Positions 4,445 through 40,537 are shown, numbered from the stretch's first letter. The stretch: 61,949 nucleotides of DNA from an uncultured Bacillales bacterium (GCA_945929875.1 CAMEOO010000003.1:1-61949); one strand, 5' to 3'. Program-made: numbers and translations. Notes: generated by a model not told the origin, from the sequence alone.

Positions 4445-4779
4445 TATAACGAATTAATGTAATATTCCTTTAGGTTTATAATCGCCTTGCAAATATAATG
4501 TCAAATAAAATGCCATATTTACTATAGATAAATTTTTATATAAAATTTATGGTTTGGTAATTTTGTTTCAATATTGATAATATTACTTCAATTTGTTAAA
4601 ATGAATTTGTCTAGGAAGATATATGCGTTTCCTACATTATATTTAAGGGAATTCTTTTCATCTCTATGGTGTTGAATGCCAAACATAATCTCTTTGGAAT
4701 CCTAAAGTAGAGAAAGAATGCCCACTTGTCAAGGATAGGAATTATCCTAAAGCTTCCTAGATTTTTTATGGAGAAAAAT

Positions 4780-16938: not shown

Positions 16939-16952
16939 GGAGGGAATAGATT

Positions 16953-18584
16953 ATGAAAAAAATATTTGTATTAAGTTTATCTTTATTGACTATTCTTTCT
17001 TTAGGCGGATGTATAAAGAAAAATACTCCTACGTCTATTACTAGTAGTGAAGTAAACACTAGCGATGTAACTTCTAGTGAAAATCCTACTAGCGAAGAAG
17101 TATCAAGTGAAACTTCTAGTAACTCATCTAGTAGCTCTACTAGTAGCTTATATACATATAAAGAATATGGAGAAAAAACTAGCACTTCTTTAGAAGTTAA
17201 ATTCTATGTTAATCTTCCAGGTGATGATGGATTATATTGTAAATATAATGTTGAACCAGGTACAAAGATTAAAAGATTTGCTTGTTCATTAAAAGATTAC
17301 TACTTATCATATTGGTATTATGATAAATTAGGCCTTGAACCATTTGATTTTGATACTGCTATTAATGAAAATCTTTCATTGTACGCTTACAATAGACCTA
17401 AAGTTCCTGGATCTGATCCAGTAGAAATTATCGAAGAAGGCGAATTCACAATTACTTTTAATCCTGGTAAGAATGTTTCTATCGTTGAAAAAGAAAATAT
17501 GACTTTGCCATCAAAAGCTAATAAAGATCAAGAGATTTCTTTCTACCTTGCTTTTAATTATAATGTAAGTCACGAAGTGGTAGTAAAAGTTAATAATCAA
17601 GTAGTTTCTTCCGATGCAAATGGCATCTACACTTTCAAAGTAGAAGGAAACACTTTAGTGGAAACTAGCGATGCAGAAATACTTGAATTCGTAGACACAA
17701 ATAAGTATGAATTTTTAGTGGATTCTTCATCTTACGATATGGTTATTAATCCCGCGAACACATTAGAGTATATGGCTGAAGGAATCACCTTAAATGTAGG
17801 TGATACATTCAAAGTTAAAGTAACAGATGAAAATGATAATGTGAGCTATTATTCTAAAGCTTTAACTATAGTAGATGGTATCGCTCAAGCCAATGAGTTC
17901 ACTTGTACAAAAGCTGGTATCTATAGCTTTTATTTCGATACCCAAAAATTAGCGTGTTGGGTATCTGGACCATTAGTTAATTACACCTTTACAAACTGTC
18001 CAAGTTGGCTATTTACTGAAGATGTAGTCGTTTATGCATGGGCTTGGATGGATGGTCAAGAAGGTGGTTGGTATGAAGCAACCTTAAATTCTAACGATCA
18101 TAGCGTATCTCTATTATTAAATGACAATATGTATGGCTTAAAGTTCCAAGTTTACGATGCTAAAACATTTACTGGACCTACATGGGATAATAAGGTTGGA
18201 GAAACTCCAGCAGACTATGAACTTACTACTGGCGTATATTCTTACGATGGAAGTAAGATTTGGATTCACTACACCGATGAAGTAGAAACTTATAGATTCT
18301 ACTTTAAGAATACCTTAGGTTGGTCAACAATCAATTACTACACTTGGGGAGCAAGTGGACCAAAATCATCTTGGCCAGGAGAAGCGATGACTCTAGTTGA
18401 TGGAACTACTGATGTCTATTATTGTGAAGTTAACATTAATAGATATGCAAATATCATCTTCAACAATGGCTCCGCTCAAACAATTGATATCTCTTTAGTT
18501 GGAGTAGATAATAATTCTCTATTTGAATTATCAACAATGAGTGGTGCTAAATATAACGTTAGCATCTCTCCATATAATGGATAA
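16953..18584 (+). CDS. Surface lipoprotein with C-terminal starch-binding-type (CBM25/26-like) modules
   Basis: Lipobox 'LSLGGC' and a Ser/Thr linker. C-terminus 'RFYFKN..GW..INYYTWG......WPGEAMT......YYCEV......IIFNNG.AQT.D' matches the CBM25/26 aromatic pattern as I recall it. Starts 15 nt after pulA. Confidence 0.6.
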   Translation: MKKIFVLSLSLLTILSLGGCIKKNTPTSITSSEVNTSDVTSSENPTSEEVSSETSSNSSSSSTSSLYTYKEYGEKTSTSLEVKFYVNLPGDDGLYCKYNVEPGTKIKRFACSLKDYYLSYWYYDKLGLEPFDFDTAINENLSLYAYNRPKVPGSDPVEIIEEGEFTITFNPGKNVSIVEKENMTLPSKANKDQEISFYLAFNYNVSHEVVVKVNNQVVSSDANGIYTFKVEGNTLVETSDAEILEFVDTNKYEFLVDSSSYDMVINPANTLEYMAEGITLNVGDTFKVKVTDENDNVSYYSKALTIVDGIAQANEFTCTKAGIYSFYFDTQKLACWVSGPLVNYTFTNCPSWLFTEDVVVYAWAWMDGQEGGWYEATLNSNDHSVSLLLNDNMYGLKFQVYDAKTFTGPTWDNKVGETPADYELTTGVYSYDGSKIWIHYTDEVETYRFYFKNTLGWSTINYYTWGASGPKSSWPGEAMTLVDGTTDVYYCEVNINRYANIIFNNGSAQTIDISLVGVDNNSLFELSTMSGAKYNVSISPYNG

Positions 18585-18604
18585 TACATAGAGTAAATTA
18601 ATAA

Positions 18605-18636
18605 GTCCGGGTGAATAAATCATCCGGATTTTTTTG
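18605..18636 (+). terminator. Strong rho-independent terminator closing the pullulanase operon
   Basis: TCCGGGTGA-ATAAA-TCATCCGGA followed by T7. Confidence 0.85.
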
Positions 18637-18686
18637 GCTAAATATGTGTATATATTTTCTACGTATAGTGGAAGAATTCCATATTG

Positions 18687-18782
18687 TTAGTGTAAAAAAA
18701 TTACGTCTAAAAAGATTGCAAATGTAAAAAAAATACACTTCGGTAGTTTACAAATGTAAAAAAAATACATATAATAATAGTG
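18687..18782 (+). repeat. Three phased 32-bp units each carrying TGTAAAAAAA(T/A)TAC; the third unit fills the spacer of a TTTACA-17-TATAAT promoter (18747-18775)
   Basis: Motif copies at 18691-18704, 18723-18736 and 18755-18768, exactly 32 bp apart. Units 2 and 3 share 'CAAATGTAAAAAAAATACA'. Confidence 0.6.
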
Positions 18783-18798
18783 AAATGAGGAGAGAAAA

Positions 18799-19920
18799 AT
18801 GTTAAAACGAGTTACTTTCAGTGGATTTAGAATGTTTAAGAACCAACAAACAATCGATTTTACTGCGACAAAGTCAGAAATCTTAAAAGAATATAATGTG
18901 AAAAATAAAATTCTTAACGGAGGATTATTTTTTGGAAGCAATGGTTCAGGGAAAACATCTGCATTGAACGCGATTAGTATTCTTTTAGATCTTTTATTTA
19001 AAGATCTTTCATTTCCTTCTAATTTTATCTGTGCTTTTTCAAAAAAAGGAGTAGCTTCTTTTAAATATGAGTTTGTAATAGATAATAATAATGTTACATA
19101 TTTGTTTTCTGTAAATACCAAATCAGAAATAACAAATGAAGAATTATACTTGGATAATCAAAAAATTATATCAAGAATCAATAAGAGTGTAAAAACTATC
19201 TTGTCAGACAATGAAGAACAGGAAGTTTCTTCAAACATTTTGTTTTTGAGGACTGCCTATTTTAATACTAATTTTATAAATTATCCTATTTTAAATAAAT
19301 GGATGGAATTTTTGAAAAACTCCATCTATATTGATAGAACAAATAATAAGATGATTACATTTACAAATGATGTATTTTTAGATACAAATTTAGTTTCCTA
19401 TATTGATAAATATGGAGTTAGTGAAATTAATGAGTTCTTAAGTAATTATGATATTCCTTATAAGATTCATTATCAAAAGCAAAATGTTCTTGGTAATAAC
19501 TATATAGCAATCATTGTTGAAAATAAGATAGTAAAGTGTTCACTTCCAATCCAATTAGAATCATACGGAAATAAACTGTTGATTCAATTAATACCATTCT
19601 TATTGTCATGTAAAAAGAATGGGGGAATGTTACTAATAGATGAATTTGGTGGAGGTTGTCACAATAAATTAAATGAGCTTTTAGTAGACTTCTTATTTAA
19701 AAAATGTGAAAACGTACAATCTGTTTTAGTAACACATGAAACTAATCTATTAAAAACCAATCTTATTAGACCTGATCAAGTATTCATTTTTGATTACAAC
19801 GAAGAAGGATCGTATGTTACTAAAGCATCAGATGCATCACCTAGAGAATCGCAAAATTTGGAGAAGATGTATCTTGCAGGAGTCTTTGGAGGTATACCTC
19901 TATATGATCAATATAAATAA
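18799..19920 (+). CDS. AAA_21/ABC-type ATPase, AbiLi/RloA-like (module 1)
   Basis: 'V.FSGFRMFKN', Walker A 'GSNGSGKTS', Walker B 'LLIDEFGGGCH', 'VLVTHE', and C-terminal 'ESQNLEKMYLAGVFGGIP'. Confidence 0.75.
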   Translation: MLKRVTFSGFRMFKNQQTIDFTATKSEILKEYNVKNKILNGGLFFGSNGSGKTSALNAISILLDLLFKDLSFPSNFICAFSKKGVASFKYEFVIDNNNVTYLFSVNTKSEITNEELYLDNQKIISRINKSVKTILSDNEEQEVSSNILFLRTAYFNTNFINYPILNKWMEFLKNSIYIDRTNNKMITFTNDVFLDTNLVSYIDKYGVSEINEFLSNYDIPYKIHYQKQNVLGNNYIAIIVENKIVKCSLPIQLESYGNKLLIQLIPFLLSCKKNGGMLLIDEFGGGCHNKLNELLVDFLFKKCENVQSVLVTHETNLLKTNLIRPDQVFIFDYNEEGSYVTKASDASPRESQNLEKMYLAGVFGGIPLYDQYK

Positions 19921-20683
19921 GAATAAGAATATAGGTAGTGTCATTTATATTGTTGAAGGTAGAGAAGAAGAGCCGAGAATAATTCGGGAGTTTTATAAGA
20001 CTTTTTTAGGATATAATGTTTATCAACTCAATAGAGAAGATGACATAGAAATGCTTAAAAAAGAGAATAATAAGTATAGCAAAGTAATTATTGTTACAAT
20101 TAATAAACCACAAATAAAGGAGATAATTTCAGACAATATTGATAAATTTTATCAAGAAGTATTTATTAATAAGTTAAATGGAATAGTAGATACAGAATCT
20201 TCCGCTATATACTATATTTTTGATCGTGATGATAAAAGCAATACAAAAGAAGATATAGAAAAAGCGATGAATAAATATAATAACTCGAGAGAATCTTCTG
20301 ATTATAATTCAGTTCATGGGCTATTATTACTTAGTTATCCATGTATTGAATCGCTATATTTAAATTGTTATAAAGATAAATCTAGTTTTTCTTCATCAAA
20401 AGAAATTAAAAGATATGCAAGAGAAAACAGATTAAAAAAATTAAATGATAAAAGCTTTGAAAATGCGATAAAAGAAATGGATAGAATAATTAAAACAAAA
20501 TTTGATATTCAAATTTCTCCATCTGATTTAGATGCGTTTGAAAAAGTAAATATAGAAATTCTAGATAAGGAAGATAAAATTTATAATTACTACCATAAGT
20601 ATGTAACTTTATCGCTATTTATGATTTCATTATTAGATTTAGAAATAATTACATTTTCTAAAGAAAAAATAATCGACTATTAG
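19904..20683 (+). CDS. RloB/AbiLii-like (TOPRIM-type) partner (module 1)
   Basis: ATG 19904 follows GGAGGT and overlaps the ATPase stop by 17 nt. Has the 'VIYIVEGREEEPRIIREFY' acidic box and 'YYIFDRDD'. Confidence 0.6.
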   Translation: MININKNKNIGSVIYIVEGREEEPRIIREFYKTFLGYNVYQLNREDDIEMLKKENNKYSKVIIVTINKPQIKEIISDNIDKFYQEVFINKLNGIVDTESSAIYYIFDRDDKSNTKEDIEKAMNKYNNSRESSDYNSVHGLLLLSYPCIESLYLNCYKDKSSFSSSKEIKRYARENRLKKLNDKSFENAIKEMDRIIKTKFDIQISPSDLDAFEKVNIEILDKEDKIYNYYHKYVTLSLFMISLLDLEIITFSKEKIIDY

Positions 20684-20972
20684 ATATTTATGCTAAAAAA
20701 ATCAAACTTTATAAAATTAATATATTTAAAAAAGACGGGATAACTATTTGTTTACAATAGCGGTCCCAACTTTTATTTTAGATAATTGAAGTGCTTCAAT
20801 TGAAACAATATTATGCTTTATGTTTCAAGTAATTTTGTAAGCGTAAAAATGGTTCTTTCCACGATTAGTTGACAAAATTAACATTTTAATATAGGAAGTG
20901 GAGTAAAATCATCTGTAAAAAAATGAGTAAAATCATATTTTACACATATAATGTAAATATATAACATTATTG

Positions 20973-20989
20973 ATGTAAAAAAATTACAT
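20973..20989. promoter_or_regulatory. Perfect 6-5-6 palindrome ATGTAA-AAAAA-TTACAT just upstream of a TTGAAT-17-TATCAT promoter for module 2
   Basis: Same core as the 18691-18768 motif. A further TGTAAAAAAAT at 20914-20924 is flanked by direct GAGTAAAATCAT repeats (20901-20912 and 20925-20936). Confidence 0.5.
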
Positions 20990-21047
20990 TAATGTTGAAT
21001 TCGGAAAGAGAGTGAACTATCATATGAATGTAAGGGGTAATAAAATC

Positions 21048-22136
21048 ATGTTAAAAGAGTTTAGGGTTAAGAATTTTAGAAGTTTTAGAGACTGGCTTGT
21101 TTTTAAACTAGATAATGTCCGTGACTATTCGTTTAATGAGAATTGTGTAAAAAATGGTTTAGTCAATAAAGCAGTAATCTATGGAAAAAATGGCAGTGGA
21201 AAAAGTAATCTAGGTTTTGCTATCATGGATATTTCTACTCATTTATTTGATGGAATGAATGCAATGAGATTTAGTCCATATTTAAATCTAAACTCTACTG
21301 AAAGTGAAGCTTCTTTTGTCTATGTATTTAAATTTGAAGATGATATTATAGAATATTCATATAGAAAAGATACGAATAGAAATTTAGTTTTTGAAGAAAT
21401 CAAAGAAAATGGAAATATTATTTTTCAATATAATTTTATAAATAAAAAAATAGTAAATAATATTTCAGACATTAATACTTTAAAATTTGAAAATAATACT
21501 TCAAATATTTCGATGGTAAAATTTATTTATAATAATTCTATTCTTCAAAATAACTCACCTATTAAAAGAATTGTTGAATTCGCTTCGAATATGCTTTGGT
21601 TTAGATCGGTAAGGAACTTTGAGTACATTACTCCGAATGTAGGAGTGGAAGATATTAACGATTTCATTATAAAGAATAATTTGGTATTGGAACTACAAAA
21701 TTTCTTTAAAGGCATTGGATTAAATTATAATCTAAGTAGATATAACAATTTAGGGAAAGAGATAGTTATTGCAAATTACGAAAATGGTAGCGCTCCGCTA
21801 GTGAATGTTGCTTCTACTGGTACGATGTCGCTATGGTTATTCTTTTATTGGATGCATAAAAATAATAACATCTCTTTCTTATTCATCGATGAGTTTGATG
21901 CTTTCTATCATTATGAATTATCAAAAAATATACTAATTAATACTATTAATAATAATAATTTCCAATCGATATTAACTACTCATAATGCATTTTTGTGCGA
22001 CAACGATATAATGAGACCAGATTGTTATTTTATTATTAATAATGAATCTATAAAAAGTTTCGCAGATTCAACCTCAAAGGTTATTAGACAAGGGCATAAC
22101 CTAGAAAAGATGATGATTAGCGGTGAGTTCGAATAA
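21048..22136 (+). CDS. AAA_21/ABC-type ATPase (module 2)
   Basis: 'MLKEFRVKNFRSFRDW', Walker A 'GKNGSGKSN', 'LFIDEFDAFYH', 'ILTTHN', and 'QGHNLEKMMISGEF'. ATG 21048 follows AAGGGG. Confidence 0.75.
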   Translation: MLKEFRVKNFRSFRDWLVFKLDNVRDYSFNENCVKNGLVNKAVIYGKNGSGKSNLGFAIMDISTHLFDGMNAMRFSPYLNLNSTESEASFVYVFKFEDDIIEYSYRKDTNRNLVFEEIKENGNIIFQYNFINKKIVNNISDINTLKFENNTSNISMVKFIYNNSILQNNSPIKRIVEFASNMLWFRSVRNFEYITPNVGVEDINDFIIKNNLVLELQNFFKGIGLNYNLSRYNNLGKEIVIANYENGSAPLVNVASTGTMSLWLFFYWMHKNNNISFLFIDEFDAFYHYELSKNILINTINNNNFQSILTTHNAFLCDNDIMRPDCYFIINNESIKSFADSTSKVIRQGHNLEKMMISGEFE

Positions 22137-22869
22137 AAAAATTCTATTTTTAGTTGAAGGAGACCAAATGGAAAAATGCAATGTTGAAAATGTTGCTAAA
22201 AAAATGTTCCATTTGGTTAAAGAGGATTACAAAATAGTTTCATATGGGACTTCATTATATGAACTATACGAAGAATTATCGTCAGATCCTTTACTTTCAT
22301 TAGTCGGATTATTGAAGTCAACAGGGAAAATAACTCTCGGCCCTGAAGAGTTATCTAAACAAGCTTTTTCACAAATATATCTTGTTTTTGATTATGAGCC
22401 ACATTATCAAAAATACTCTGACGAGAAGGTTAAAAAAATGTTATCTTTTTTTGACAACGAGACTGAAAATGGAAAATTGTATATAAATTATCCTATGTTT
22501 GAAGCGGCTTTTTATCTTGATGATTTTGAAAATCCAAAATGTGCATATGAAAAAATTAGCATTATAGATTGCTGTGGAGAAACATTTAAAACAAAAGTTA
22601 GATCTTTGTCGTGTTTTGGAAAGAAAAATCATTTAGATTTTAGTTTATCAAAAACGTTAGATATATGGCAAAGTATTAAATGGAATTATAAAAGAGTTGT
22701 TTATTTAATTGGGAAAGAAGAACTAGATTACCAAATGGTTTTAGATAGACAAATAGAGATTAAAAATTCGAAGGAAAAATCGATATTAATATTATCTACA
22801 TTTGTTCTAATGATCGTGGATTATAATCCTGGAATTTTGAAAGTATTAGAAGAAAGAATCGGTTTATGA
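22123..22869 (+). CDS. RloB/DUF4276-like small partner (module 2)
   Basis: GTG start overlaps the ATPase stop by 14 nt. Has the 'KILFLVEGDQMEK' box and 'IYLVFDYE'. Confidence 0.5.
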   Translation: MSSNKKILFLVEGDQMEKCNVENVAKKMFHLVKEDYKIVSYGTSLYELYEELSSDPLLSLVGLLKSTGKITLGPEELSKQAFSQIYLVFDYEPHYQKYSDEKVKKMLSFFDNETENGKLYINYPMFEAAFYLDDFENPKCAYEKISIIDCCGETFKTKVRSLSCFGKKNHLDFSLSKTLDIWQSIKWNYKRVVYLIGKEELDYQMVLDRQIEIKNSKEKSILILSTFVLMIVDYNPGILKVLEERIGL

Positions 22870-22939
22870 AATGAATGTTTTAAACTATCTTTAGTTATTC
22901 ATTGAAAAATGATATATAAATAATAATCCTAAGAGTAAA

Positions 22940-23158
22940 TATCTTACTTAGTTGCAGTCTTTGGAGGTATATCTCTATATGATCAATATAAATGAGAATA
23001 AGAATATAGGTAGTGTCATTTATATTGTTGAAGGTAGAGAAGAAGAGATGAGAATAATTCGGGAGTTTTATAAGACTTTTTTAGGATATGCTTGTCAAGT
23101 CAATAGAGAAGACGATAAAGAGATTGAGCATATAGTAGATAAGTTGATTGCCTTATAA
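22940..23158 (+). pseudogene. Remnant of an ATPase-3'-end / RloB-5'-end junction (copy of 19870-20046)
   Basis: About 175 bp at ~93% identity to the module-1 junction. Encodes 'MININENKNIGSVIYIVEGREEEMRIIREFYKTFLGY', then diverges and stops after 60 codons. No ATPase body lies upstream. Confidence 0.75.
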
Positions 23159-23456
23159 GCATAATCTTTACAGAATGTAATTATTTTGTAATGAATTCTC
23201 TGTTTTTTGTTTAATTTTGTGCATAATTGTCACTTGTTTGTAAAAAAAGTGAATTTATGAAAAAGATTCTATTCTTTTATAGTGCATTATAATAATATGA
23301 ATAGTTTTTCAAATGTACATAAAGATTCTTTTAGATAATAATTTTTGCAAAAAACGATAAAAGTATAAAATTTAATATAAAAAATGAGAAATTTTCTCAA
23401 TTTATGGTTTAAAATTATATAATTATTGATAAAATATATAAAAAGGAGATAGCAAA

Positions 23457-24689
23457 ATGTTATTGAACTTCAGAGTTAAAAATTATAAGTCTTTTGTAGA
23501 AGATAGCGAATTAAATATGCTTGCGGCTTCCATTAAAGAGCATAGCGATAGTTTAATTGTTGAAAATGATGTGAAGGTATTGCCTATCGCCGCTATATTT
23601 GGGGCAAATGGAAGTGGAAAGTCAAATTTTTTAGAGGCTATTGCTTTACTTCATGATTTGCTCATCGTATATTCTAGTAAAGATGAAAGAGTGACATTAA
23701 AAGATTGTGTATCTAGCTATATTTTTGATAGTGAAATTAAAAATTCTCCTACAGAATTGGAAATCTCTGTATGTGATAAGGAGACAAAAAAAGAATATAG
23801 ATATGGTATTTCATTAAATAGTGAAAAGATTTTAGAAGAATGGCTTTTTATGAAAGTTTTTTCTCAAACTAAAAATGTTAAGGAAAAATGTGTTTTTTAT
23901 AGAGAGTATGGTAAAAAGCTTAGATCAGATTTATCCGATAAAGATCGAAAAGAAATTGATTTTGTTTTCTCGTTTACTTTAGAAGATGAACTATTGATGT
24001 CAAATTTAGGCAAAAGAGGAATTAGCAAGTATCAATATATTTGTAGATGGTTTAAAGAAAAAACAAATTATTTAAATTATTCTAGTGATATTATTCTATC
24101 GAAAAAAAATTTTAAATTGATGGAAGTTTTTTATAAAAATAAAAACTGGTTAGATATCATTGTAAAATTTATGAAAACGATAGATGAATCAATTATCAAT
24201 ATTGAGATTGATGAAGAAACAAATAATAATATGAATGTAGTTTATACCCCTTATTCTATTCATAAAAATGACGATGGAAGTTTTGCTAGAATTCCATTTT
24301 CCTTAGAATCAAGTGGTTCAAAGAAGATGTTTACTTTTTTATTATATCTTTTATTAAGTCTAAATAATGGATTCACTTTGGTTGTTGATGAACTCGACTC
24401 AAAATTACACCCATTAATTTTAAGATATATTGTTGGATTATATACAAATAAGAAAATTAATATTGGAGGAGGACAATTAATCTTTACTTCTCATAATTTA
24501 ATTTGTTTAGATTCATCTGACTTAAGAAGAGATGAAATTTTCTTCGTAGAGAAAATTAATCAAAAATCTTCTTTATTTTCTTTATATGACTTTAAAGATT
24601 CAAGCATTAGAAATGATTTAAGTTTTGGAAAACATTACTTAAATGGAAGATTTGGAGCAGTACCGTTTATTAATGACGATAAGGAGTAA
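23457..24689 (+). CDS. AAA_21/ABC-type ATPase (module 3)
   Basis: 'MLLNFRVKNYKSF', Walker A 'GANGSGKSN', 'LVVDELDSKLHP', 'IFTSHN', and 'HYLNGRFGAVP'. Confidence 0.75.
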   Translation: MLLNFRVKNYKSFVEDSELNMLAASIKEHSDSLIVENDVKVLPIAAIFGANGSGKSNFLEAIALLHDLLIVYSSKDERVTLKDCVSSYIFDSEIKNSPTELEISVCDKETKKEYRYGISLNSEKILEEWLFMKVFSQTKNVKEKCVFYREYGKKLRSDLSDKDRKEIDFVFSFTLEDELLMSNLGKRGISKYQYICRWFKEKTNYLNYSSDIILSKKNFKLMEVFYKNKNWLDIIVKFMKTIDESIINIEIDEETNNNMNVVYTPYSIHKNDDGSFARIPFSLESSGSKKMFTFLLYLLLSLNNGFTLVVDELDSKLHPLILRYIVGLYTNKKINIGGGQLIFTSHNLICLDSSDLRRDEIFFVEKINQKSSLFSLYDFKDSSIRNDLSFGKHYLNGRFGAVPFINDDKE

Positions 24690-24692
24690 TTT

Positions 24693-24887
24693 ATGGGTGC
24701 TGATAATTTTAACAAAAGAAGAAATAAATAGCGAAGAGAAAGAAGATCTAAAGAACTTCTCTTACGAGCAGAATCCTGGCTAATAGTATGTGAAGGAGAA
24801 ATAACAGAACCAAATTATTTAAATGCACTTTTTGATTATATTAATATTTATCACTCAAAAATGCATATAAAAAAATTAAATATATAA
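24693..24887 (+). pseudogene. Decayed RloB-like partner of module 3 (in-frame TAG at codon 13, truncated after ~64 codons)
   Basis: ATG lies 3 nt after the ATPase stop. TAG at 24729-24731. The same frame continues 'WLIVCEGEITEPNYLNALF', the canonical RloB N-terminal box, then runs into the next module's promoter region. Confidence 0.7.
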
Positions 24888-25021
24888 TAAAATACGCAAA
24901 ATTTTTACCGCAAAAATAATAGTTAACTATCAATTTGCGAATAATTTTTGCATAATACGAAAGAAAATATTGCGTTTTGCATAAACTATTATATAATGAT
25001 AATAGAAATGAGGAAAAATAT

Positions 25022-26308
25022 ATGATCATACAGAGTGTTTCAATTAATGGATATAAGAATTTATCCAAAGTAAAAATAAAATTTGATAAAATTACTGCTT
25101 TAGTTTCCTTAAATAACTTTGGAAAATCAAACGTTTTATCTGGAATTGATTTTGCTATTTCGTTTATTAAAGCATCTAGTGATGTGAAAAGGAACATGAT
25201 GTCAAATTTATCATGCGTACCATTAAAAAAAGCAAACTTTTTAAAGAATTTCAAATACAGTATGATTTTATCTACTTTAATTAATGAAAAGAAATATCTT
25301 ATTTCGTATTCTTTTGAATTTGAATGGCAAAAAGGTCAAGAGCATGATCCAAAAATTCTATCTGAATCTCTTAAAATGAAATTAGATGAAAAAGGGCAAA
25401 AATATACTCAATTAATTGATAGGAAAAATAATGCTTCTTATTACAAAAGCTCAGAAACTGGAAGATGTAGCAGTGAAATTAATATAGGATCTTGTGAACT
25501 AATAGTGAATAAGTTAAAAGCATATGATAATTTATTTTATAAGGATATTATTTCTGAAATAAATGAAATTAAAATCTACATAGAAAATAATCTTGAAGTA
25601 AGAGAAAATTTTTTACCTAATCCAATAATACGAAAAGATTTTGAAAACGAACTGATTAATGCAGATAATTTACCTAGAATTATATTTACTCTTAAAAATA
25701 AATATCCAGATAAATATAGCCTTTTAATTAATATTTTTACTCAGATATTCCCTGACATCAAACAGATAGAAGTAAAAGAAGTTAAATATAACAATGATAG
25801 CAATAATCAATTTGATGAAGATGCAATATATACTATTGCTAACACGATTTATGTGCTTTTTATATATGATGATAAATCAAGATTTCCACTCAGATTTGAT
25901 ATGCTTTCTGATGGAACAAAAAGAATATTTATGATTTTGACTAAAGTAATTCTTTCTAGTATTAGCAATATAGCTTTAATTGCAATAGAAGAACCTGAGA
26001 ATTCAATACATCCTAGTTTATTTAGAGCTTATTTAGAAATATTAAGTGACTTGTTATTTGATTGTAAAATAATAATTGCTACTCATTCTCCTTATGTTAT
26101 AAGTTATTTAAACCCTCTATGGATTCATGTTGGGATCGATAAAAATGATGGATTAGCTAGATTTTATCCTATAAATAAAGCAAAAGAAAAGCAATTAGAA
26201 AAAGATGCAGAGTTTTTTAAGATGAATACAGGCGATTATTTATTCTCTTTACTAGCGGATCCAAGTAGCGATATCTCATCTTTCTTGGAGTGTGATAGCG
26301 ATGAATAA
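25022..26308 (+). CDS. OLD/AAA_15-type ATPase (module 4)
   Basis: 'IQSVSINGYKNL', P-loop 'SLNNFGKSN' (first Gly replaced), 'IAIEEPENSIHP' (EEPE..HP is OLD-family-like), and 'IIATHSP'. A TATAAT lies at 24991-24996. Confidence 0.7.
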   Translation: MIIQSVSINGYKNLSKVKIKFDKITALVSLNNFGKSNVLSGIDFAISFIKASSDVKRNMMSNLSCVPLKKANFLKNFKYSMILSTLINEKKYLISYSFEFEWQKGQEHDPKILSESLKMKLDEKGQKYTQLIDRKNNASYYKSSETGRCSSEINIGSCELIVNKLKAYDNLFYKDIISEINEIKIYIENNLEVRENFLPNPIIRKDFENELINADNLPRIIFTLKNKYPDKYSLLINIFTQIFPDIKQIEVKEVKYNNDSNNQFDEDAIYTIANTIYVLFIYDDKSRFPLRFDMLSDGTKRIFMILTKVILSSISNIALIAIEEPENSIHPSLFRAYLEILSDLLFDCKIIIATHSPYVISYLNPLWIHVGIDKNDGLARFYPINKAKEKQLEKDAEFFKMNTGDYLFSLLADPSSDISSFLECDSDE

Positions 26309-26906
26309 ATGTATAGTTATAATTGCTGAAGGTGAAACCGAAGTAGAGTTTTACAAAAAAATGATCAGTTATTTTAGAAATAAAAACTCTATTGTTCGAT
26401 TTAATTCATGCATAGAGTATTTAAATGTTAATGGAATAGGCGGCTTTAAAAATAATGCATTGAGAAAATTTATAAAAGAAGTTGTCCCTAAATATGGTAA
26501 GAATTGTGAGTATATTGTTTTTTTGTGTAGTGATACTGATGTATTTGAGTTTTCTATAAGGCCTCCGATTAATTGGGAAGTAGTTATTAGTGAATTTAAA
26601 AAGAATGGCGCTAATGAAGTTTTTCAAATAGAGGCCGATAAATCTATAGAAGACTGGTTTTTAATAGATCTAGAAGGAATAATAAAGTATTTGAGGCTTA
26701 AAAAGAATACTAAACCTACAGGTAAAAATGGGTATGAAAAGCTTAAATCTCTATTTAAACTTGCAAATCGTATGTACTATAAAGGTGCAAAATGTGAGGG
26801 ATTAATTGATCATTTAGATATTGGTAAAATTTATGAAAAAAAGTTGAATAAGTTGAAACCTTTATTTGAAAAACTTACTAAAAAAGAATTACAGTCAATT
26901 TGTTAA
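26301..26906 (+). CDS. DUF4276-like (TOPRIM-type) partner (module 4)
   Basis: ATG overlaps the ATPase stop by 8 nt. Has 'CIVIIAEGETEVEFY', 'VFLCSDTDV' and 'SIEDWFL'. Confidence 0.55.
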   Translation: MNKCIVIIAEGETEVEFYKKMISYFRNKNSIVRFNSCIEYLNVNGIGGFKNNALRKFIKEVVPKYGKNCEYIVFLCSDTDVFEFSIRPPINWEVVISEFKKNGANEVFQIEADKSIEDWFLIDLEGIIKYLRLKKNTKPTGKNGYEKLKSLFKLANRMYYKGAKCEGLIDHLDIGKIYEKKLNKLKPLFEKLTKKELQSIC

Positions 26907-26930
26907 AAATTGATCTTGTATATAAAAAAA

Positions 26931-26951
26931 GTCAGAGAAATCTCTGACTTT
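26931..26951. terminator. Short hairpin after module 4 (weak T-run)
   Basis: GTCAGAG-AAAT-CTCTGAC, preceded by A7 and followed by only TTT. Confidence 0.4.
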
Positions 26952-27206
26952 GAATCACTTGCTCAAGAAGTCCTTAAGCTAGTTTTTCCGCAAAAAAATC
27001 ATAGCAAAGAAAAACTTCTAGTGCAAGAAAAATTAAAAAGGAGGTTGATATTATGCTATGGTTTTATGATGTACAGTTATATTATTTCATTGATTCTTTT
27101 TCAATAATTATAAAAAATCATAATAAAGAAATAAAACAATTTGGCTACTTATAAATTTATTATTGTTTTTTTATATTCGTTAATTTTATAGAAAGGGAAG
27201 GAAAAA

Positions 27207-28115
27207 ATGAAATTAGTATTAAATAATAAAAGAATAAATTCAATTAAAATATTAGAAAAATTTAACATCGAAAAAATAAAAATCGGAATACCAGTTAAAA
27301 ATGATGAGGCTAGAAAAGTCTGTCTTACAAATGTTGGAGATGTGGTTTTGCCAGATGCAAAATTTGGCCCCTTAAGTAAGAAAAATGCAAATGGATATTC
27401 TTATGCGGATAAAACAAAGCAAAAAGAAATGCGTTATGTAAATACTATTCGCTTTCATCCATATGGAAATGATAATGCAGATGAAATATATAAGGATATT
27501 TATAGATTGTGTTATCCAAAAATTGAAGTTCCACCATATGAAATTTCACTACAATTAACTAGCAATAGTAGAAGTGAATTATTCATATATGCAGTTTTAA
27601 CTAAACAAATAAGAGATAATTTCATCAAAGAGGCTATTAACCTCCTTTTAGAAATATTTGGCATTTGTGTTATTACTGATGAAGATATTGATGTAAACTT
27701 TACAAACAAAACAAACTGGTGCAACTGGGTTATACTTCCACCAGGAGAAAAGCCTAGTGATTATTTGAAGAATTTTTATAATAACAATTCTAGTAAAAAG
27801 AATATGGATTTTGATCTAGAAAGACTCAAATATATCGAGAGCTTTAATTATATATCCGATAGTGTAGGAATAAATGGCTTTAGAGGATATACTGCCTTCA
27901 TATTTGAAAAATATTGTGTTTTTGAATGTGCAACTTACGGAAATGCTATTTATATAGTAGAAAGAGAAAATTGGGAAGAACTAAGTAAAAGAACAAAAAA
28001 AGAACTAATTGTAGAAGGAAAAGTAGTTGCAAAAATTGAACATAAAGAATTTTGGAAAGAAAGTCTAAAGAAAGAATTCAAAAAATTAGGAATTACTAGA
28101 AGAGTTGAAGTATAG
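27207..28115 (+). CDS. Hypothetical 302-aa protein, no family recognised
   Basis: RBS AAGGGAAGGA, long clean ORF, own terminator, no TM segment or signal peptide. Confidence 0.7.
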   Translation: MKLVLNNKRINSIKILEKFNIEKIKIGIPVKNDEARKVCLTNVGDVVLPDAKFGPLSKKNANGYSYADKTKQKEMRYVNTIRFHPYGNDNADEIYKDIYRLCYPKIEVPPYEISLQLTSNSRSELFIYAVLTKQIRDNFIKEAINLLLEIFGICVITDEDIDVNFTNKTNWCNWVILPPGEKPSDYLKNFYNNNSSKKNMDFDLERLKYIESFNYISDSVGINGFRGYTAFIFEKYCVFECATYGNAIYIVERENWEELSKRTKKELIVEGKVVAKIEHKEFWKESLKKEFKKLGITRRVEV

Positions 28116-28156
28116 TAGCTTATTCACAATTTTTATTTTTAGCAACAATTTTAAGA

Positions 28157-28206
28157 TAATAATAGAAATGCGCTTAATTTTAAAAACCCATTTCTATTAT
28201 TTTTTA
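28157..28206 (+). terminator. Rho-independent terminator (13-bp perfect stem)
   Basis: AATAATAGAAATG...CATTTCTATTATT followed by T-rich sequence. Confidence 0.7.
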
Positions 28207-28556: not shown

Positions 28557-29597
28557 ATGAATGAAAGCAATGTAGAAGTTAGTAATAAACCAATATACCC
28601 TTTTATGAAAAAATCTAATTCTTCTAAAGGAAGTAAAGTGTCAACAAAAGCGAAATCTCGCGGTAAAGAAATTCGTGTTGATACCCACTACAAAGAGAAA
28701 GTAGAAAGAGAAAGAAAGTTAAAGAGATTACAAGAGGCTAGAAAAAAAAGAGAACAACAAAAACTTCTTGAACATGAAGAGTCATTAAAGACTTTCAAGA
28801 AAAAGGCAGTTAAGACTGCTTTAAAAAATGAAGAGCTAGCTCAATCATTAAAAAACAAAGAAGTTAAAGTTAAATCTAATGGCCAAAAGGAATCTCAAGA
28901 AAGATTAAAAAGAGCGACTAAAACTCCTTTCTCCTACTACTATAACGTTAGTAAAGATGTTAGTAATAACATAGGATATTGCAATATTTATCAATGTATG
29001 AACGATAAATTTGCGGGTAGGTTATTCCAACCTCAATACTTCGCTATCGCAGAACAATCGGAAAGAATCTTCGAAATCAATAAACTATTGATTATTCATT
29101 CTATCGGTATTGCATTGTTACATGAAGAAACTTCCTTCTTAGTGCAAGTCTCACCTAAATATTTAGAATCCGATGAGCGCTATAAGGAACTAGAAAGTTT
29201 ACTTGAAAATGCACCTACTAATCTAATTCTCTGTATGGATTCTAGACCATTAATCCTTACAGGAGATGAAGGAAGAAAAAGATTATTAGAGTTAATTGAA
29301 AAATATAAATTAAGTCTAATGCTTGATAATCCTGAAACTGAAAGACTATCTGTTCTATTTGACTATCCAATTAAATATATTCGATTAGATGGAAGGTACT
29401 ATGTAGATCGAAGTGAAAACAAAAAGCAATTCATTAAGATAATTAATGAGTATTGTAAAGGTTTAAAAATCGATCTAGTAGCAAAATACATCGACACTAA
29501 AGAAGATAAATCTTGGATGTTAGCAAATGGAGTCAGATATATTGAAGGGGCGAACGTTCAAACAAACAAAAGTAATGTAAATGCAGCATTGAAATAG
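28557..29597 (+). CDS. Cytoplasmic protein: Lys/Glu-rich N-terminal half + degenerate (catalytically dead) EAL-like domain
   Basis: Colinear with the EAL blocks: 'FQPQYFAIAEQSERIFEINKLL', 'LVQVSP', 'LILCMDS', 'LSLMLDNPETERLSVLFDYPIKYIRLDGRYY' (in place of DDFGTG...KiD) and 'LVAKYIDTKED...GVRYIEG' (in place of AEGVE...QG). Confidence 0.5.
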   Translation: MNESNVEVSNKPIYPFMKKSNSSKGSKVSTKAKSRGKEIRVDTHYKEKVERERKLKRLQEARKKREQQKLLEHEESLKTFKKKAVKTALKNEELAQSLKNKEVKVKSNGQKESQERLKRATKTPFSYYYNVSKDVSNNIGYCNIYQCMNDKFAGRLFQPQYFAIAEQSERIFEINKLLIIHSIGIALLHEETSFLVQVSPKYLESDERYKELESLLENAPTNLILCMDSRPLILTGDEGRKRLLELIEKYKLSLMLDNPETERLSVLFDYPIKYIRLDGRYYVDRSENKKQFIKIINEYCKGLKIDLVAKYIDTKEDKSWMLANGVRYIEGANVQTNKSNVNAALK

Positions 29598-33110: not shown

Positions 33111-34703
33111 ATGTTTTGGCAATTTTTAGGTGAGTTTATCGCGGTATTTGCCCTAGGGTTTTTAGGGATATTTATCAGTTGGTCTGGTAAAGCCTATGGA
33201 GGACTTATTGGTGGAATTATTCAAATGTTTAATGTTCCTCAATATATCGCTGTTGTAAACAAGTATAAAGAGTATTTTGGTCCAGGAGAATGGATTGGTC
33301 TTGCGGCTATAATTTTAGTGTTCCTTGCGGTATTAGTTGGATTATTATGGGTTATCATCCATTATTCAATTAGACTATATAAACGTTTATTTGTTAATAA
33401 GCAAAACGATGATGATTTAGTTGATGAAGTTAATAGATTAAGAAGAACTGTTATTAGAAATAATAAAGAGAGAAATAAATTAATTGATCTTTGTTTAAAA
33501 AGTGGGGCTTCTTCTAGTAGTGTTTCTTCAGTGTTAAATGATGAAGAAGAAACTTCAGAAAAGAAAGAAGAAAGTCAAGAGCAAGAAAAAGAAAATGTTA
33601 ATAATGGAGAATCTAGATTCTTTAAGCTTACTGAAGTAGATGCTTTATATAGAGATAATCCACCTCATTTTACTTATGATAATGATATAACTTTAGAAGA
33701 GTTATGTGATAGATTTAGAAACTGGGCGTGTTCAGAGATGCATTTATACTATGAACCTAGAGTAATTAGATTGTTCTTCGCGGCTTTTGCTACCACTAGA
33801 ATTATCATTTTACAAGGTATATCTGGTACAGGTAAAACTTCCCTTCCTTACGCGATTGGTCAATGGTTAGATAATCCATCAACGATTGCTTCTGTTCAAC
33901 CTTCTTGGAGAGATAGAACTGAAATCTTTGGTTATTTTAATGAATTTACTAAGAGATTTAATGAAACTCAAATTTTAAAGAAAATGTATGAAGCTAGGTA
34001 TAATGAACAAATATATTTGACAGTTATCGATGAAGCTAACATCGCTCGTGTTGAATATTATTTCGCAGAATTATTATCTATTCTAGAAATGCCTTCTAGA
34101 GATAACTGGATCGTCGATATTTGTCCTTCTGGTTGGGAAAATGACCCTAAATTTATTGAAAAAGGTAGATTTAAATTACCTGAAAATATGTGGTTCATCT
34201 GTACAATCAATAACGATGACTCTACATTTGCTATTTCAGATAAGGTTTACGATCGTGCTATTCCAATTAACATCAATAGTAAAGGTATTCCTTTTGATGT
34301 ACCTGAAGAAGAAAGAAACAAAGCTCATGAATGCGTTTCATATAAGCATCTAGAAGCAATGTTTAAAGAAGCTCAAGAAAAATATAAAGTCAGTGAAGAA
34401 AATATTAAGAAATTTAACGATATGGATGACTATGTCATCGAACACTTCCGTTTAGCATTTGGTAATCGTATCGTTAAACAATTAAAGGAATTTGTTCCAG
34501 TTTACGTTGCTTGCGGTGGAACTGAAATTGATGGTTTAGACTATGTTCTATGTAATAAGATTTTAAGAAAATTTGAATCGTTAAACTTGGCTTACATTCG
34601 TGATGAAGTCGATGGATACATTCAATATTTAAATGATCACTTCGGCGAAGAAAATATGAAAGAATCTAAAGAATATCTAGAAAGATTAAAGAAATTATTC
34701 TAA
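33111..34703 (+). CDS. Membrane-anchored McrB-family AAA+ NTPase
   Basis: Two to three N-terminal TM helices, then 'ILQGISGTGKTS', 'VQPSWRDRTEIFGYF', 'LTVIDEANIARVEYYFAELLSILE' and 'FICTINNDDS..ISDKVYDRA', colinear with the E. coli McrB motifs. Confidence 0.75.
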   Translation: MFWQFLGEFIAVFALGFLGIFISWSGKAYGGLIGGIIQMFNVPQYIAVVNKYKEYFGPGEWIGLAAIILVFLAVLVGLLWVIIHYSIRLYKRLFVNKQNDDDLVDEVNRLRRTVIRNNKERNKLIDLCLKSGASSSSVSSVLNDEEETSEKKEESQEQEKENVNNGESRFFKLTEVDALYRDNPPHFTYDNDITLEELCDRFRNWACSEMHLYYEPRVIRLFFAAFATTRIIILQGISGTGKTSLPYAIGQWLDNPSTIASVQPSWRDRTEIFGYFNEFTKRFNETQILKKMYEARYNEQIYLTVIDEANIARVEYYFAELLSILEMPSRDNWIVDICPSGWENDPKFIEKGRFKLPENMWFICTINNDDSTFAISDKVYDRAIPININSKGIPFDVPEEERNKAHECVSYKHLEAMFKEAQEKYKVSEENIKKFNDMDDYVIEHFRLAFGNRIVKQLKEFVPVYVACGGTEIDGLDYVLCNKILRKFESLNLAYIRDEVDGYIQYLNDHFGEENMKESKEYLERLKKLF

Positions 34704-34731
34704 TTATTAATTGTTGAAAGAAGGATTTTTG

Positions 34732-40521: not shown

Positions 40522-40537
40522 GAAAGGAGGAAAAAGC

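What the first reader, a model, noticed from the sequence alone, without database searches (positions are those of the whole stretch)
18687..28206. Accessory island: four tandem, mutually divergent ATPase + TOPRIM-like two-gene modules (split-OLD / AbiL-PARIS-like) with no mobility genes
The island lies between two strong terminators (18605-18636 and 28157-28206) and separates the pullulanase operon from the adhesin locus. Modules: [18799-19920 + 19904-20683], [21048-22136 + 22123-22869], [23457-24689 + pseudogene 24693-24887], [25022-26308 + 26301-26906]. In each module the small gene overlaps or abuts the ATPase stop (17-nt overlap, 14-nt overlap, 3-nt gap, 8-nt overlap). The ATPases share 'F(R/S).KN(F/Y)(R/K)SF', a P-loop 'G.NGSGK(S/T)', and a Walker B with downstream His ('LLIDEFGGGCH', 'LFIDEFDAFYH', 'LVVDELDSKLHP'). 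The fourth ATPase has the OLD-type 'IAIEEPENSIHP'. The partners share an N-terminal acidic box ('IYIVEGREEEP', 'LFLVEGDQMEK', 'LIVCEGEITEPNY', 'VIIAEGETEVEF') and a later 'FDRDD'/'FDYE'/'SDTDV' box. This is the RloB (AbiLii)/DUF4276 pattern. The ATPase + RloB pairing is the AbiL abortive-infection architecture, and ATPase + TOPRIM-like partner is also the PARIS logic. Four different versions side by side, two with decayed partners, suggests a cassette hotspot under diversifying turnover. Which phages or triggers they sense is unknown.
Basis: partly seen in the sequence, partly recalled or inferred. Interest (0 to 1): 0.7.

Follow-up and report, generated by a model that had tools for sequence, protein, structure and literature searches.

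The report
Array of ATPase–nuclease phage-defence gene pairs
An uncultured pig-gut bacterium carries four different two-gene "ATPase plus small nuclease-like partner" modules in a row; all belong to known or candidate anti-phage families, and close strains differ in which modules are present or intact, so this is a good but ordinary defence island.

Summary
Four same-strand gene pairs lie at 18799-26906 with the stated 17-nt, 14-nt and 8-nt overlaps and 3-nt gap, and every quoted motif is present.

All four large proteins are AAA_21-type ABC ATPases, only 22-26% identical to each other.
- Module 2 is a full match to PADLOC candidate PDC-M12 (A 1e-113, B 1e-45).
- Module 1 is a divergent relative. 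Its partner is homologous to PDC-M12B (hhalign 98.6%) and is RloB/AbiLii-like only at family level.
- Module 3 is an AbiLi-type ATPase (4.5e-80). Its RloB partner is reduced to 64 codons with a stop.
- Module 4 is an HEC-01 / MADS3-4-type ATPase + DUF4276 pair.

None is PARIS (no DUF4435). Foldseek did not confirm a TOPRIM fold; that rests on motifs, secondary-structure order and the literature.

One related strain joins 20023 directly to 23100 inside this repeat and so lacks module 2. Another has a frameshift in B1. Other contigs carry an IS or a TnpB fragment after 22965, and similarity breaks at 27240.

Turnover is therefore shown, and the variable region extends beyond 28206. Defence function is inferred: PDC-M12 is untested and HEC-01 showed no defence in its only assay.

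Verdict: new members of a known kind.

The parts
18603..18631 (+). Intrinsic terminator of the upstream pullulanase/CBM26-lipoprotein operon. It marks the left edge of the accessory region.
   Evidence: 12-bp stem with a T-run. Folds at -16.3 kcal/mol, z -3.8. Synteny with L015 ends after the CBM26 lipoprotein gene.
18799..19920 (+). A1: ABC-type ATPase (AAA_21) of the AbiLi/PDC-M12A clade, 373 aa.
   Evidence: Pfam AAA_21 1.9e-15. PADLOC AbiLi 5e-48 and PDC-M12A 1.1e-43. Walker A, signature, Walker B and H-loop are intact.
19904..20683 (+). B1: divergent RloB/AbiLii/PDC-M12B-like partner, 259 aa, overlapping A1 by 17 nt. Carries the E18-G19...E23, D107-R-D109 and S-Y-P...E149 motifs.
   Evidence: Pfam RloB 3.5e-6, 27.8 bits, below the 31.5 cutoff. 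No PADLOC hit itself, but 29/55 family members hit PDC-M12B and 26/55 hit AbiLii. hhalign against the B2 family gives 98.6%, E 8.8e-16. Motif residues are invariant in 55 homologs.
21048..22136 (+). A2: PDC-M12A ATPase, 362 aa.
   Evidence: PADLOC PDC-M12A 1.1e-113. Pfam AAA_21 6.3e-18. phrog_38223 8e-59.
22123..22869 (+). B2: PDC-M12B partner, 248 aa, GTG start, overlapping A2 by 14 nt. Carries E12-G13...E17, D90-Y-E92 and N-Y-P...E127.
   Evidence: PADLOC PDC-M12B 1.1e-45. 343 homologs. RloB hit in 14/43 members. AF2 pLDDT 92.3 with strand-helix alternation, Glu after strand 1 and Asp at the end of strand 3. No significant PDB fold match.
22956..23128 (+). Relic of a further module: the 3' end of an A1-like gene plus the first ~47 codons of a B1-like gene. 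It forms a direct repeat with 19881-20052 and is a recombination substrate.
   Evidence: 97% identity over 134 nt, then 81% over 37 nt. The organism B contig joins 20023 to 23100 inside this repeat. L089 and L090 diverge from the window at 22965.
23457..24689 (+). A3: AbiLi-type ATPase, 410 aa, apparently intact but left without a working partner.
   Evidence: PADLOC AbiLi 4.5e-80 and Pfam AAA_21 6.1e-31. Plasmid homologs at 36% identity are followed by an annotated 219-aa RloB family protein with a 17-nt overlap.
24693..24887 (+). B3 pseudogene: the N-terminal 64 codons of an RloB-type partner with an in-frame TAG at 24729. The rest is deleted.
   Evidence: Translation is MGADNFNKRRNK*RRERRSKELLLRAESWLIVCEGEITEPNY.... 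Pfam RloB 2.3e-4 to model positions 2-21. BLASTP against the pCt2 RloB gives 4e-5.
25022..26308 (+). A4: OLD/AAA_15-AAA_21-type ABC ATPase of the HEC-01A / MAD3 kind, 428 aa.
   Evidence: Pfam AAA_21 4.2e-18 and AAA_15 4e-15. PADLOC HEC-01A 2.7e-27. NCBIfam MADS3 8.9e-21, far below its cutoff.
26301..26906 (+). B4: DUF4276-family partner, 201 aa, overlapping A4 by 8 nt. Carries E10-G11-x-T13-E14, D78-T-D80 and S-I-E-D-W (115-119).
   Evidence: 358 homologs at 51-59% identity, several with PF14103 or named 'DUF4276 family protein'. PADLOC HEC-01B 5.6e-5. Motifs are invariant in 30 homologs. AF2 pLDDT 86.4. Top BFVD match is an 'RloB-like protein', E 8.5e-4, TM 0.46. The same 428-aa + 201-aa pair with an 8-nt overlap occurs in Dorea.
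26928..26951 (.). Hairpin after B4, with the A/T runs of a possible terminator.
   Evidence: -14.5 kcal/mol, z -4.1.
27207..28115 (+). ORF302: a gene of a widespread uncharacterised family. It is variable cargo next to the array and its role is unknown.
   Evidence: No Pfam, NCBIfam or PHROG hit. 1128 homologs in the 50% representative library. No PDB relative. Similarity to organisms A and B stops at 27240, 11 codons into the gene.
28152..28206 (+). A+T-rich hairpin with a T-run after ORF302; a plausible terminator.
   Evidence: -12.3 kcal/mol, z -4.7. Not called by the consensus scan.

Best explanation
The region is a chromosomal anti-phage / anti-mobile-element defence island in an uncultured, low-G+C pig-gut member of the Bacilli (near Candidatus Onthovivens).

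It holds three intact two-gene modules, one half-decayed module and one relic. Each intact module is translationally coupled and consists of an ABC-type (AAA_21/AAA_15) ATPase followed by a small metal-dependent nuclease-like partner with TOPRIM-type acidic motifs. The partner is RloB/AbiLii/PDC-M12B-like in modules 1-3 and DUF4276 in module 4.

The likely mechanism is inferred by analogy with PARIS, the only mechanistically solved ATPase + separate-TOPRIM system. The ATPase oligomer holds the partner inactive and acts as the infection sensor. A phage product triggers ATP-dependent release. The freed nuclease cuts a host or phage nucleic acid, such as a tRNA, and halts growth (abortive infection).

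Four very different ATPases would sense different triggers. The array is remodelled by homologous recombination at repeated module junctions and by IS activity. The toxic partner genes are the ones repeatedly lost.

Shown: gene structure, family membership, motif conservation, conserved pairing in other lineages, and strain-to-strain gain, loss and decay. Inferred: defence function, complex formation, trigger and nuclease target.
For: - Family assignments.
- B1 and B2 are homologous.
- Acidic motifs are invariant across 30-55 homologs per family.
- ATPase motifs are intact.
- The two-gene architecture with overlapping stop/start is kept in distant hosts. Examples: Clostridium plasmids (nested in type I R-M in pCt2), Vibrio inoviruses, Abyssisolibacter next to a holin, Dorea, and a second species where two modules sit back to back beside smpB and an integrase.
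- Strain variation: the organism B contig skips 20024-23099. There is a 1-nt deletion at 20024 in organism A. Breakpoints lie at 22965 and 27240, with an IS or TnpB in other contigs.
- The locus is absent from the syntenic site in L015.
- Literature: AbiL is a validated Abi system, and AbiL (RloB) and MADS3-4 (DUF4276) are grouped with OLD/Gabija/PARIS as ABC ATPase + TOPRIM systems (PMC11464382, PMC13064643). HEC-01B is described as TOPRIM-like (10.1101/2024.01.29.577857).
Against: - No module here has been tested. PDC-M12 is one of PADLOC's untested candidates, and HEC-01 gave no protection against any phage tried in E. coli (10.1101/2024.01.29.577857).
- The AbiL mechanism is itself unknown (PMC13064643).
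- The window's B1, B2 and B4 do not reach any Pfam gathering score.
- Foldseek of good AF2 models found no significant PDB match, TOPRIM or otherwise.
- hhalign does not link the DUF4276 family to the RloB-like families.
- RNA evidence is only a few metatranscriptome contigs that may be DNA carry-over.
Confidence: 0.72

Rival explanations
1. The pairs are primarily selfish toxin-antitoxin-like addiction modules, with the nuclease as toxin and the ATPase as antitoxin. They persist by post-segregational killing or by stabilising neighbouring DNA, with no real role against phages.
For: - PARIS behaves formally as a type II TA pair (PMC13064643).
- The modules occur on plasmids and prophages.
- The partner genes are the ones repeatedly inactivated (B3 in the window, B1 in organisms A and B), as expected for a costly toxin.
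- HEC-01 gave no defence in assays (10.1101/2024.01.29.577857).
Against: - AbiL and MADS are experimentally linked to phage resistance (PMC13064643, PMC11464382).
- The modules cluster with other defence candidates, namely the PDC-M26A + DUF2357 pair at 33111-36375.
- Orphan ATPases (A3) are retained intact, which a pure addiction model does not need.
Confidence: 0.13
2. They are housekeeping ABC ATPase-nuclease pairs for DNA repair, recombination or cell-cycle functions, in the manner of RecF/SbcCD or the archaeal OLD-family ATPase Cran1.
For: Weak hits to the SMC_N, RecF and Rad50 models. A precedent exists for a non-defence OLD-family ATPase (PMC12796447).
Against: - Presence/absence and pseudogenisation between strains that are 97% identical.
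- Absent at the syntenic site of the nearest genome.
- Four paralogues at only 22-26% identity sit side by side.
- The best matches are defence models by tens of orders of magnitude.
Confidence: 0.04
3. They are accessory parts of a larger restriction-type system (restriction-linked 'rlo' genes, or MAD3-4 inside MADS/Hma) and do not work on their own.
For: The A3-type pair in plasmid pCt2 is nested between type I hsdM/hsdS genes. HEC-01 was defined as embedded in Hma systems (10.1101/2024.01.29.577857).
Against: - There is no methyltransferase, hsdR/S or helicase gene between 18.6 and 28.2 kb.
- The Dorea and Abyssisolibacter homologues are free-standing pairs.
- AbiL works as a two-gene system (PMC13064643).
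Confidence: 0.06

Closest known systems
PADLOC candidate system PDC-M12 (PDC-M12A + PDC-M12B)
   Same: Module 2 matches both models end to end (1.1e-113 and 1.1e-45) in the expected order with overlapping genes. Module 1 is a distant relative: A1 scores 1.1e-43, and the B1 family is linked by hhalign at 98.6% with 29/55 members hitting PDC-M12B.
   Different: PDC-M12 is an untested candidate with no described mechanism. The window's B1 is not itself recognised by any PADLOC model.
AbiL (AbiLi + AbiLii) of Lactococcus, and RloA/RloB restriction-linked pairs
   Same: A3 (4.5e-80) and A1 (5e-48) hit the AbiLi model. The B3 remnant has the RloB N-terminus (CEGEITEPNY). The gene order and stop/start overlap are those of annotated ATPase + RloB pairs on Clostridium plasmids.
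   Different: Module 3's partner is a pseudogene. B1 and B2 fall below the Pfam RloB cutoff and are 250-260 aa rather than about 200-220 aa. There is no R-M context here.
HEC-01 (Hma-embedded candidate 1) / MADS MAD3-MAD4
   Same: Module 4 is an AAA_15/21 ABC ATPase (HEC-01A 2.7e-27; MADS3 8.9e-21) plus a DUF4276-family partner with conserved E...DxD...E-D-W motifs.
   Different: It is free-standing and not embedded in an Hma/MADS locus. It scores far below the NCBIfam MAD3 cutoff (74.5 versus 420 bits). HEC-01 showed no defence when tested.
PARIS (AriA + AriB)
   Same: Same logic: an ABC ATPase and a separate small TOPRIM-type effector in a two-gene operon. PARIS is the only relative with a solved mechanism (sensor scaffold releases a tRNA-cutting nuclease; PMC11464382).
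   Different: No partner hits DUF4435. AriA models score 1e-14 to 1e-30, well behind AbiLi, PDC-M12A and HEC-01A. These are not PARIS members.
OLD-family nucleases (P2 Old, Gabija GajA)
   Same: Same AAA_15/21 ATPase clade. A4 has the IAIEEPE..HP Walker B typical of OLD, with weak hits to Old (1.2e-15) and GajA.
   Different: ATPase and nuclease are separate genes rather than one polypeptide. There is no GajB/UvrD helicase. The OLD-like_TOPRIM Pfam model scores only E 0.13 on B4.

Membership tests
PDC-M12 (PADLOC candidate) | Protein matching the PDC-M12A ATPase model | tested here: met
   A2 scores 1.1e-113 over 1-362 of a 369-position model. A1 scores 1.1e-43.
PDC-M12 (PADLOC candidate) | Adjacent protein matching the PDC-M12B model | tested here: met
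   B2 scores 1.1e-45 and overlaps A2 by 14 nt. The window's B1 has no hit, so module 1 is met only at family level (29/55 members).
PDC-M12 (PADLOC candidate) | Demonstrated anti-phage activity | not testable with these tools
   PDC systems are described as untested candidates (10.1101/2024.01.29.577857).
AbiL / RloAB | AbiLi-type ABC ATPase | tested here: met
   PADLOC AbiLi scores: A3 4.5e-80, A1 5e-48, A2 4.2e-35.
AbiL / RloAB | Intact AbiLii/RloB (PF13707) partner directly downstream | tested here: not met
   Not met for module 3: B3 is 64 codons with an in-frame stop, then truncated. Module 1 is borderline only: B1 scores RloB 27.8 bits, below the 31.5 cutoff, has no AbiLii hit itself, and 26/55 family members hit AbiLii.
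AbiL / RloAB | Abortive-infection phenotype | not testable with these tools
   Needs phage assays.
HEC-01 / MADS3-4 | AAA_15/21 ABC ATPase of HEC-01A / MAD3 type | tested here: met
   A4 scores HEC-01A 2.7e-27, AAA_15 4e-15 and AAA_21 4.2e-18. NCBIfam MADS3 gives 74.5 bits, which is below the equivalog cutoff of 420.
HEC-01 / MADS3-4 | DUF4276 (PF14103) / HEC-01B partner | tested here: inconclusive
   B4 itself scores HEC-01B 5.6e-5 and has no Pfam hit. Its 51-59% identical relatives carry PF14103 or are named DUF4276, and the motifs are invariant.
HEC-01 / MADS3-4 | Embedded in an Hma / MADS methylation-associated locus | tested here: not met
   No methylase or helicase genes lie in 18.6-28.2 kb. 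The Dorea homologue is also free-standing.
PARIS | AriB with a DUF4435 domain | tested here: not met
   No DUF4435 hit for B1, B2 or B4.
PARIS | AriA-type ATPase as best match | tested here: not met
   AriA models score 1e-14 to 5e-30, always behind AbiLi, PDC-M12A or HEC-01A.
OLD class 1 / Gabija | ATPase and TOPRIM fused in one protein (plus a UvrD-like helicase for Gabija) | tested here: not met
   The genes are separate and there is no helicase.
TOPRIM-fold nucleases (general) | Conserved Glu after strand 1 and DxD at the end of strand 3 in a strand-helix alternating core | tested here: met
   AF2 models for B2 (pLDDT 92.3) and B4 (86.4) place E12/D90 and E10/D78-D80 at those positions. 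The residues are invariant in the families; B2 itself has D-Y-E, and position 92 is D in 25 and E in 18 of 43 members.
TOPRIM-fold nucleases (general) | Significant structural match to a solved TOPRIM domain | tested here: not met
   Foldseek against the PDB gave a best E of 0.04 for B2 and 3.8e-3 for B4. The matches were generic alpha/beta folds, with no TOPRIM entry near the top. B4 matches a predicted phage 'RloB-like protein' at 8.5e-4. PDB sequence profiles find nothing.

The most novel reading that the evidence does not exclude
The array may be more than a pile of independent systems.

The repeated module junctions are the A1-3'/B1-5' repeat, the shared upstream box at 18652-18704 / 20935-20987, and the recurrent breakpoints at 22965 and 27240. 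These could act as homology 'docking sites' that let whole ATPase-nuclease cassettes be swapped without a dedicated recombinase.

The intact orphan ATPases are A3 here and A1 in the strains where B1 is broken. They could be kept because they cross-regulate a neighbouring module's nuclease or serve as decoys for it. That would make a shared-effector, multi-sensor array.
Probability: 0.1. Interest if true: 0.7.

Novelty: new member of a known kind. Interest (0 to 1): 0.38.

Why it matters
ABC ATPase + separate TOPRIM-type partner systems are widespread, but only PARIS is mechanistically understood.

This locus offers four very different versions in one small genome. It also has natural knock-outs of the partner genes and a documented module gain/loss between near-identical strains.

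That makes it a convenient test set for three questions:
- Do PDC-M12 and free-standing DUF4276 pairs actually defend?
- What do their ATPases sense?
- Is the nuclease partner costly enough to be lost repeatedly?

It does not reveal a new kind of system.

Tried and rejected
- Exact-protein look-ups of the flanking lipoprotein, the EAL protein, A3 and ORF302 found no other contigs.
- The first genome-contig scan, with the CBM26 lipoprotein, found nothing.
- The metagenome-contig scan with A3 returned only relatives at 43% identity or less, so it gave no syntenic loci.
- Foldseek against the PDB and PDB sequence profiles gave no usable match for the partner proteins.
- hhalign of the DUF4276 family against the RloB-like families, and of all three families against a single annotated RloB, was weak or null. 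I do not claim a demonstrated common origin of B4 with B1/B2.
- I considered filing the modules as PARIS and as OLD/Gabija and rejected both on defining features.
- I considered an integrative element, but the window has no tRNA, integrase or flanking direct repeats.
- The 28-nt sequence that flanks 23466-27240 in inverted copies in organism A is not in the window or in any fetched locus, and I could not identify it.
- Absence calls from laid contigs are soft. Organism A's adhesin region was covered but not.

Full report
**What is in the sequence**

Between the terminator of the pullulanase/CBM26-lipoprotein operon (18603-18631) and about 26.9 kb there are eight same-strand reading frames arranged as four pairs.
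- A1 18799-19920 / B1 19904-20683
- A2 21048-22136 / B2 22123-22869
- A3 23457-24689 / B3 remnant 24693-24887
- A4 25022-26308 / B4 26301-26906

An alignment of the four large proteins shows intact Walker A, signature-like S-x-G, Walker B and H-loop motifs. A4 has a slightly degenerate SLNNFGKSN P-loop.

The four ATPases are only 22-26% identical. A4 is not detectably similar to the others by BLASTP. The window has about 29% G+C and the island is somewhat lower, at 22-28%.

**Family assignment of the ATPases**

All four hit Pfam AAA_21 (1.9e-15 to 6.1e-31), and A4 also hits AAA_15. Against PADLOC models:
- A2 is a full-length PDC-M12A match (1.1e-113).
- A3 is AbiLi (4.5e-80).
- A1 sits between the two (AbiLi 5e-48, PDC-M12A 1.1e-43).
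- A4 is HEC-01A (2.7e-27), with weaker Old, GajA and AriA hits.

NCBIfam gives A4 a sub-threshold match to the MADS MAD3 ATPase.

**The small partners**

None of the window's partner proteins reaches a Pfam gathering score. B1 hits RloB at 27.8 bits against a cutoff of 31.5. B2 and B4 hit nothing, and B4 scores OLD-like_TOPRIM at only E 0.13. At family level the picture is clearer.
- **B2** is a strong PDC-M12B match (1.1e-45).
- **B1 and B2** are homologous. Alignments of 55 B1 relatives and 43 B2 relatives compare at 98.6% probability, E 8.8e-16.
- **RloB** is the only recurrent Pfam hit among members of both families (9/55 and 14/43).
- **PADLOC on the B1 family:** 29/55 members hit PDC-M12B and 26/55 hit AbiLii.
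- **B4** has 358 relatives at 51-59% identity. Several carry precomputed PF14103 or are named 'DUF4276 family protein' by NCBI.

The acidic motifs are invariant or nearly so in each family:
- B1: E18-G19...E23, D107-x-D109, S-Y-P...E149.
- B2: E12-G13...E17, D90-x-[DE]92, N-Y-P...E127.
- B4: E10-G11-x-T-E14, D78-T-D80, S-I-E-D-W.

AlphaFold models are confident: B2 pLDDT 92.3 and B4 86.4. They show an alternating strand-helix core with the Glu just after strand 1 and the Asp box at the end of strand 3, which is the TOPRIM arrangement.

Foldseek against the PDB found no significant match for either model, and no TOPRIM entry ranked near the top. PDB sequence profiles found nothing.

The B4 model's best match among predicted viral structures is an 'RloB-like protein' (E 8.5e-4, TM 0.46). 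hhalign does not connect the DUF4276 family to the RloB-like families.

'TOPRIM-like' therefore rests on motifs, predicted topology and the literature (PMC11464382; PMC13064643; 10.1101/2024.01.29.577857). It does not rest on a structural match obtained here.

**B3 is a pseudogene**

It reads MGADNFNKRRNK*RRERRSKELLLRAESWLIVCEGEITEPNYLNALFDY... and stops after 64 codons. The surviving part matches positions 2-21 of the RloB model (2.3e-4). It also matches the N-terminus of an annotated RloB.

Intact relatives of A3 on Clostridium plasmids are followed by a 219-aa 'RloB family protein' with a 17-nt overlap. In pCt2 the pair sits between type I R-M genes.

A 172-nt stretch at 22956-23128 repeats 19881-20052. 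It is 97% identical over 134 nt and 81% over the next 37 nt. It contains the last ~40 nt of an A1-like gene and the first ~47 codons of a B1-like gene, so it is a relic of a fifth module placed after module 2.

The 302-aa gene at 27207-28115 was also not described. It belongs to a large family with no annotation (1128 relatives; no Pfam, PHROG, NCBIfam or PDB match).

**Source and relatives**

The sequence is found in pig-gut and wastewater metagenomes. The PNPase gene places the organism among uncultured Bacilli near Candidatus Onthovivens.

The only syntenic species-level genome (L015) runs PNPase, pullulanase and CBM26 lipoprotein, then an ABC exporter, with no ATPase modules. The modules are therefore not lineage core genes.

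**Turnover between strains**

Two single-organism assemblies share the left flank at about 97% identity.

*Organism A (run X18):*
- It has modules 1-4.
- It carries a 1-nt deletion at 20024 at full depth, which frameshifts B1 at about codon 41.
- The B1-A2 spacer is different.

*Organism B (run X24):*
- One contig runs from 16000 to 20023, jumps to 23100 and continues into A3.
- The joint lies inside the direct repeat.
- At this locus organism B therefore lacks the 3' part of B1 and all of module 2.

*Other contigs:*
- Two ENA contigs with B2 at 99% and 90% identity lose similarity to the window at exactly 22965.
- One continues with an IS (a 206-aa ORF plus a DDE_Tnp_1 transposase, with terminal inverted repeats).
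- The other continues with unrelated ORFs and a TnpB fragment.

*The 27240 breakpoint:*
- Organisms A and B both stop matching at 27240, eleven codons into ORF302, and share the same foreign continuation.
- A metagenome holds both forms.
- Organism B resumes matching at about 31.7 kb.
- Organism A has no contig at 85% identity or more over 27.3-41.0 kb, but it does have the giant adhesin gene.

The variable region therefore extends beyond 28206. Absence inferred from laid contigs is soft, because one search failed to show a region that one search had covered.

**Conserved architecture elsewhere**
- In another species, a module-2 homologue (76% / 64% aa) sits back to back with a second AAA_21 + RloB-like pair, beside smpB and an integrase.
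- B2-like genes with an AAA_21 neighbour are cargo of Vibrio filamentous prophages.
- A B1 relative in Abyssisolibacter is paired with a 383-aa AAA_21 gene next to a holin.
- The Dorea relative of B4 is paired with a 428-aa ATPase with the same 8-nt overlap.

**Mechanism**

By analogy with PARIS (PMC11464382), the most likely mechanism has three steps. The ATPase sequesters the partner and senses a phage product. ATP-dependent release follows. The freed nuclease then arrests the cell.

This is inference. AbiL's mechanism is unknown (PMC13064643). PDC-M12 is untested. HEC-01 showed no defence in its one published test (10.1101/2024.01.29.577857).

The repeated loss of partner genes with retention of the ATPases (B3 here, B1 in two strains) fits a toxic effector. 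It equally fits a toxin-antitoxin reading.

**Verdict**

It is too loose on 'PARIS-like', on direct model hits and on the island boundary.

These are new members of known or candidate families arranged in an unusually dense array. They are not a new kind of system.

Noticed in passing
window 22956-23158: Relic ORF (68 aa) made of an A1-like C-terminal tail plus a B1-like N-terminus. It forms a direct repeat with 19881-20052. The deletion joint seen in organism B lies inside it.
   Followed up: yes
window 27207-28115: A 302-aa protein of a large uncharacterised family. The family has 1128 relatives and conserved YGNATY, K264, H279 and W283, with no Pfam, PHROG, NCBIfam or PDB match. The gene is present in some strains and replaced in others from position 27240.
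   Followed up: partly
window 23466 and 27240 (run X18, organism A): In organism A the 3.8-kb contig covering A3 to B4 ends on both sides in the same 28 nt in inverted orientation (TCTTATGACTTTAGTCATGAGAGTGTTC and its reverse complement). Organism B has the right-hand copy only. This may be the end of an unidentified mobile element. The sequence was not found in the window or in any fetched locus.
   Followed up: partly
L089 1075-3207; L090 869-2448: Downstream of near-identical B2 genes in other samples lie foreign elements. L089 has an IS with a DDE_Tnp_1 transposase and terminal inverted repeats. L090 has a 189-aa HExxH protein plus a TnpB (Cas12f1-like_TNB) fragment. Both start at the window-equivalent position 22965.
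   Followed up: partly
window 18652-18704 and 20935-20987: A 53-nt box, 74% identical, lies upstream of both A1 and A2 and ends in TGTAAAAAAATTAC. It may be a shared promoter/operator or a cassette boundary.
   Followed up: no
window 21187 / 23384 (runs X2, X3, X24): Contigs in three runs join 23384 back to 21187 with 26 foreign letters between. This suggests that an A3-type upstream region is fused to an A2-type gene body somewhere in these communities.
   Followed up: no
window 33111-36375: A 530-aa AAA protein (PADLOC PDC-M26A 5.6e-36) is followed by a 554-aa DUF2357 protein (2.8e-8). This is a McrBC-like candidate restriction pair, so defence genes continue downstream of the reported island.
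   Followed up: partly
window 28557-29597: An EAL-domain protein (8.2e-14) with a lysine-rich N-terminal half. It is absent from organism B together with 27.3-31.7 kb.
   Followed up: partly
window 40478-59365: A single 6295-aa reading frame (giant surface/adhesin-type protein). It is present at about 94% identity in organism A, with many small indels.
   Followed up: no
window 4605-4767: 6S RNA (Rfam RF00013, 48.1 bits) lies just upstream of, and overlaps, the annotated start of the transketolase ORF.
   Followed up: no
L015 (MAG HGM10897): This is the closest syntenic genome. It has 51% G+C against about 29% in the window, although PNPase is about 90% identical at protein level. That is an odd combination.
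   Followed up: no
L003-L005 8929-12951: In another species two ATPase + RloB-like modules sit convergently beside smpB and a phage integrase. Multi-module clustering of this family therefore recurs.
   Followed up: partly
window 59454-60458: A choloylglycine (bile salt) hydrolase family gene (3.2e-105), which fits a gut habitat.
   Followed up: no
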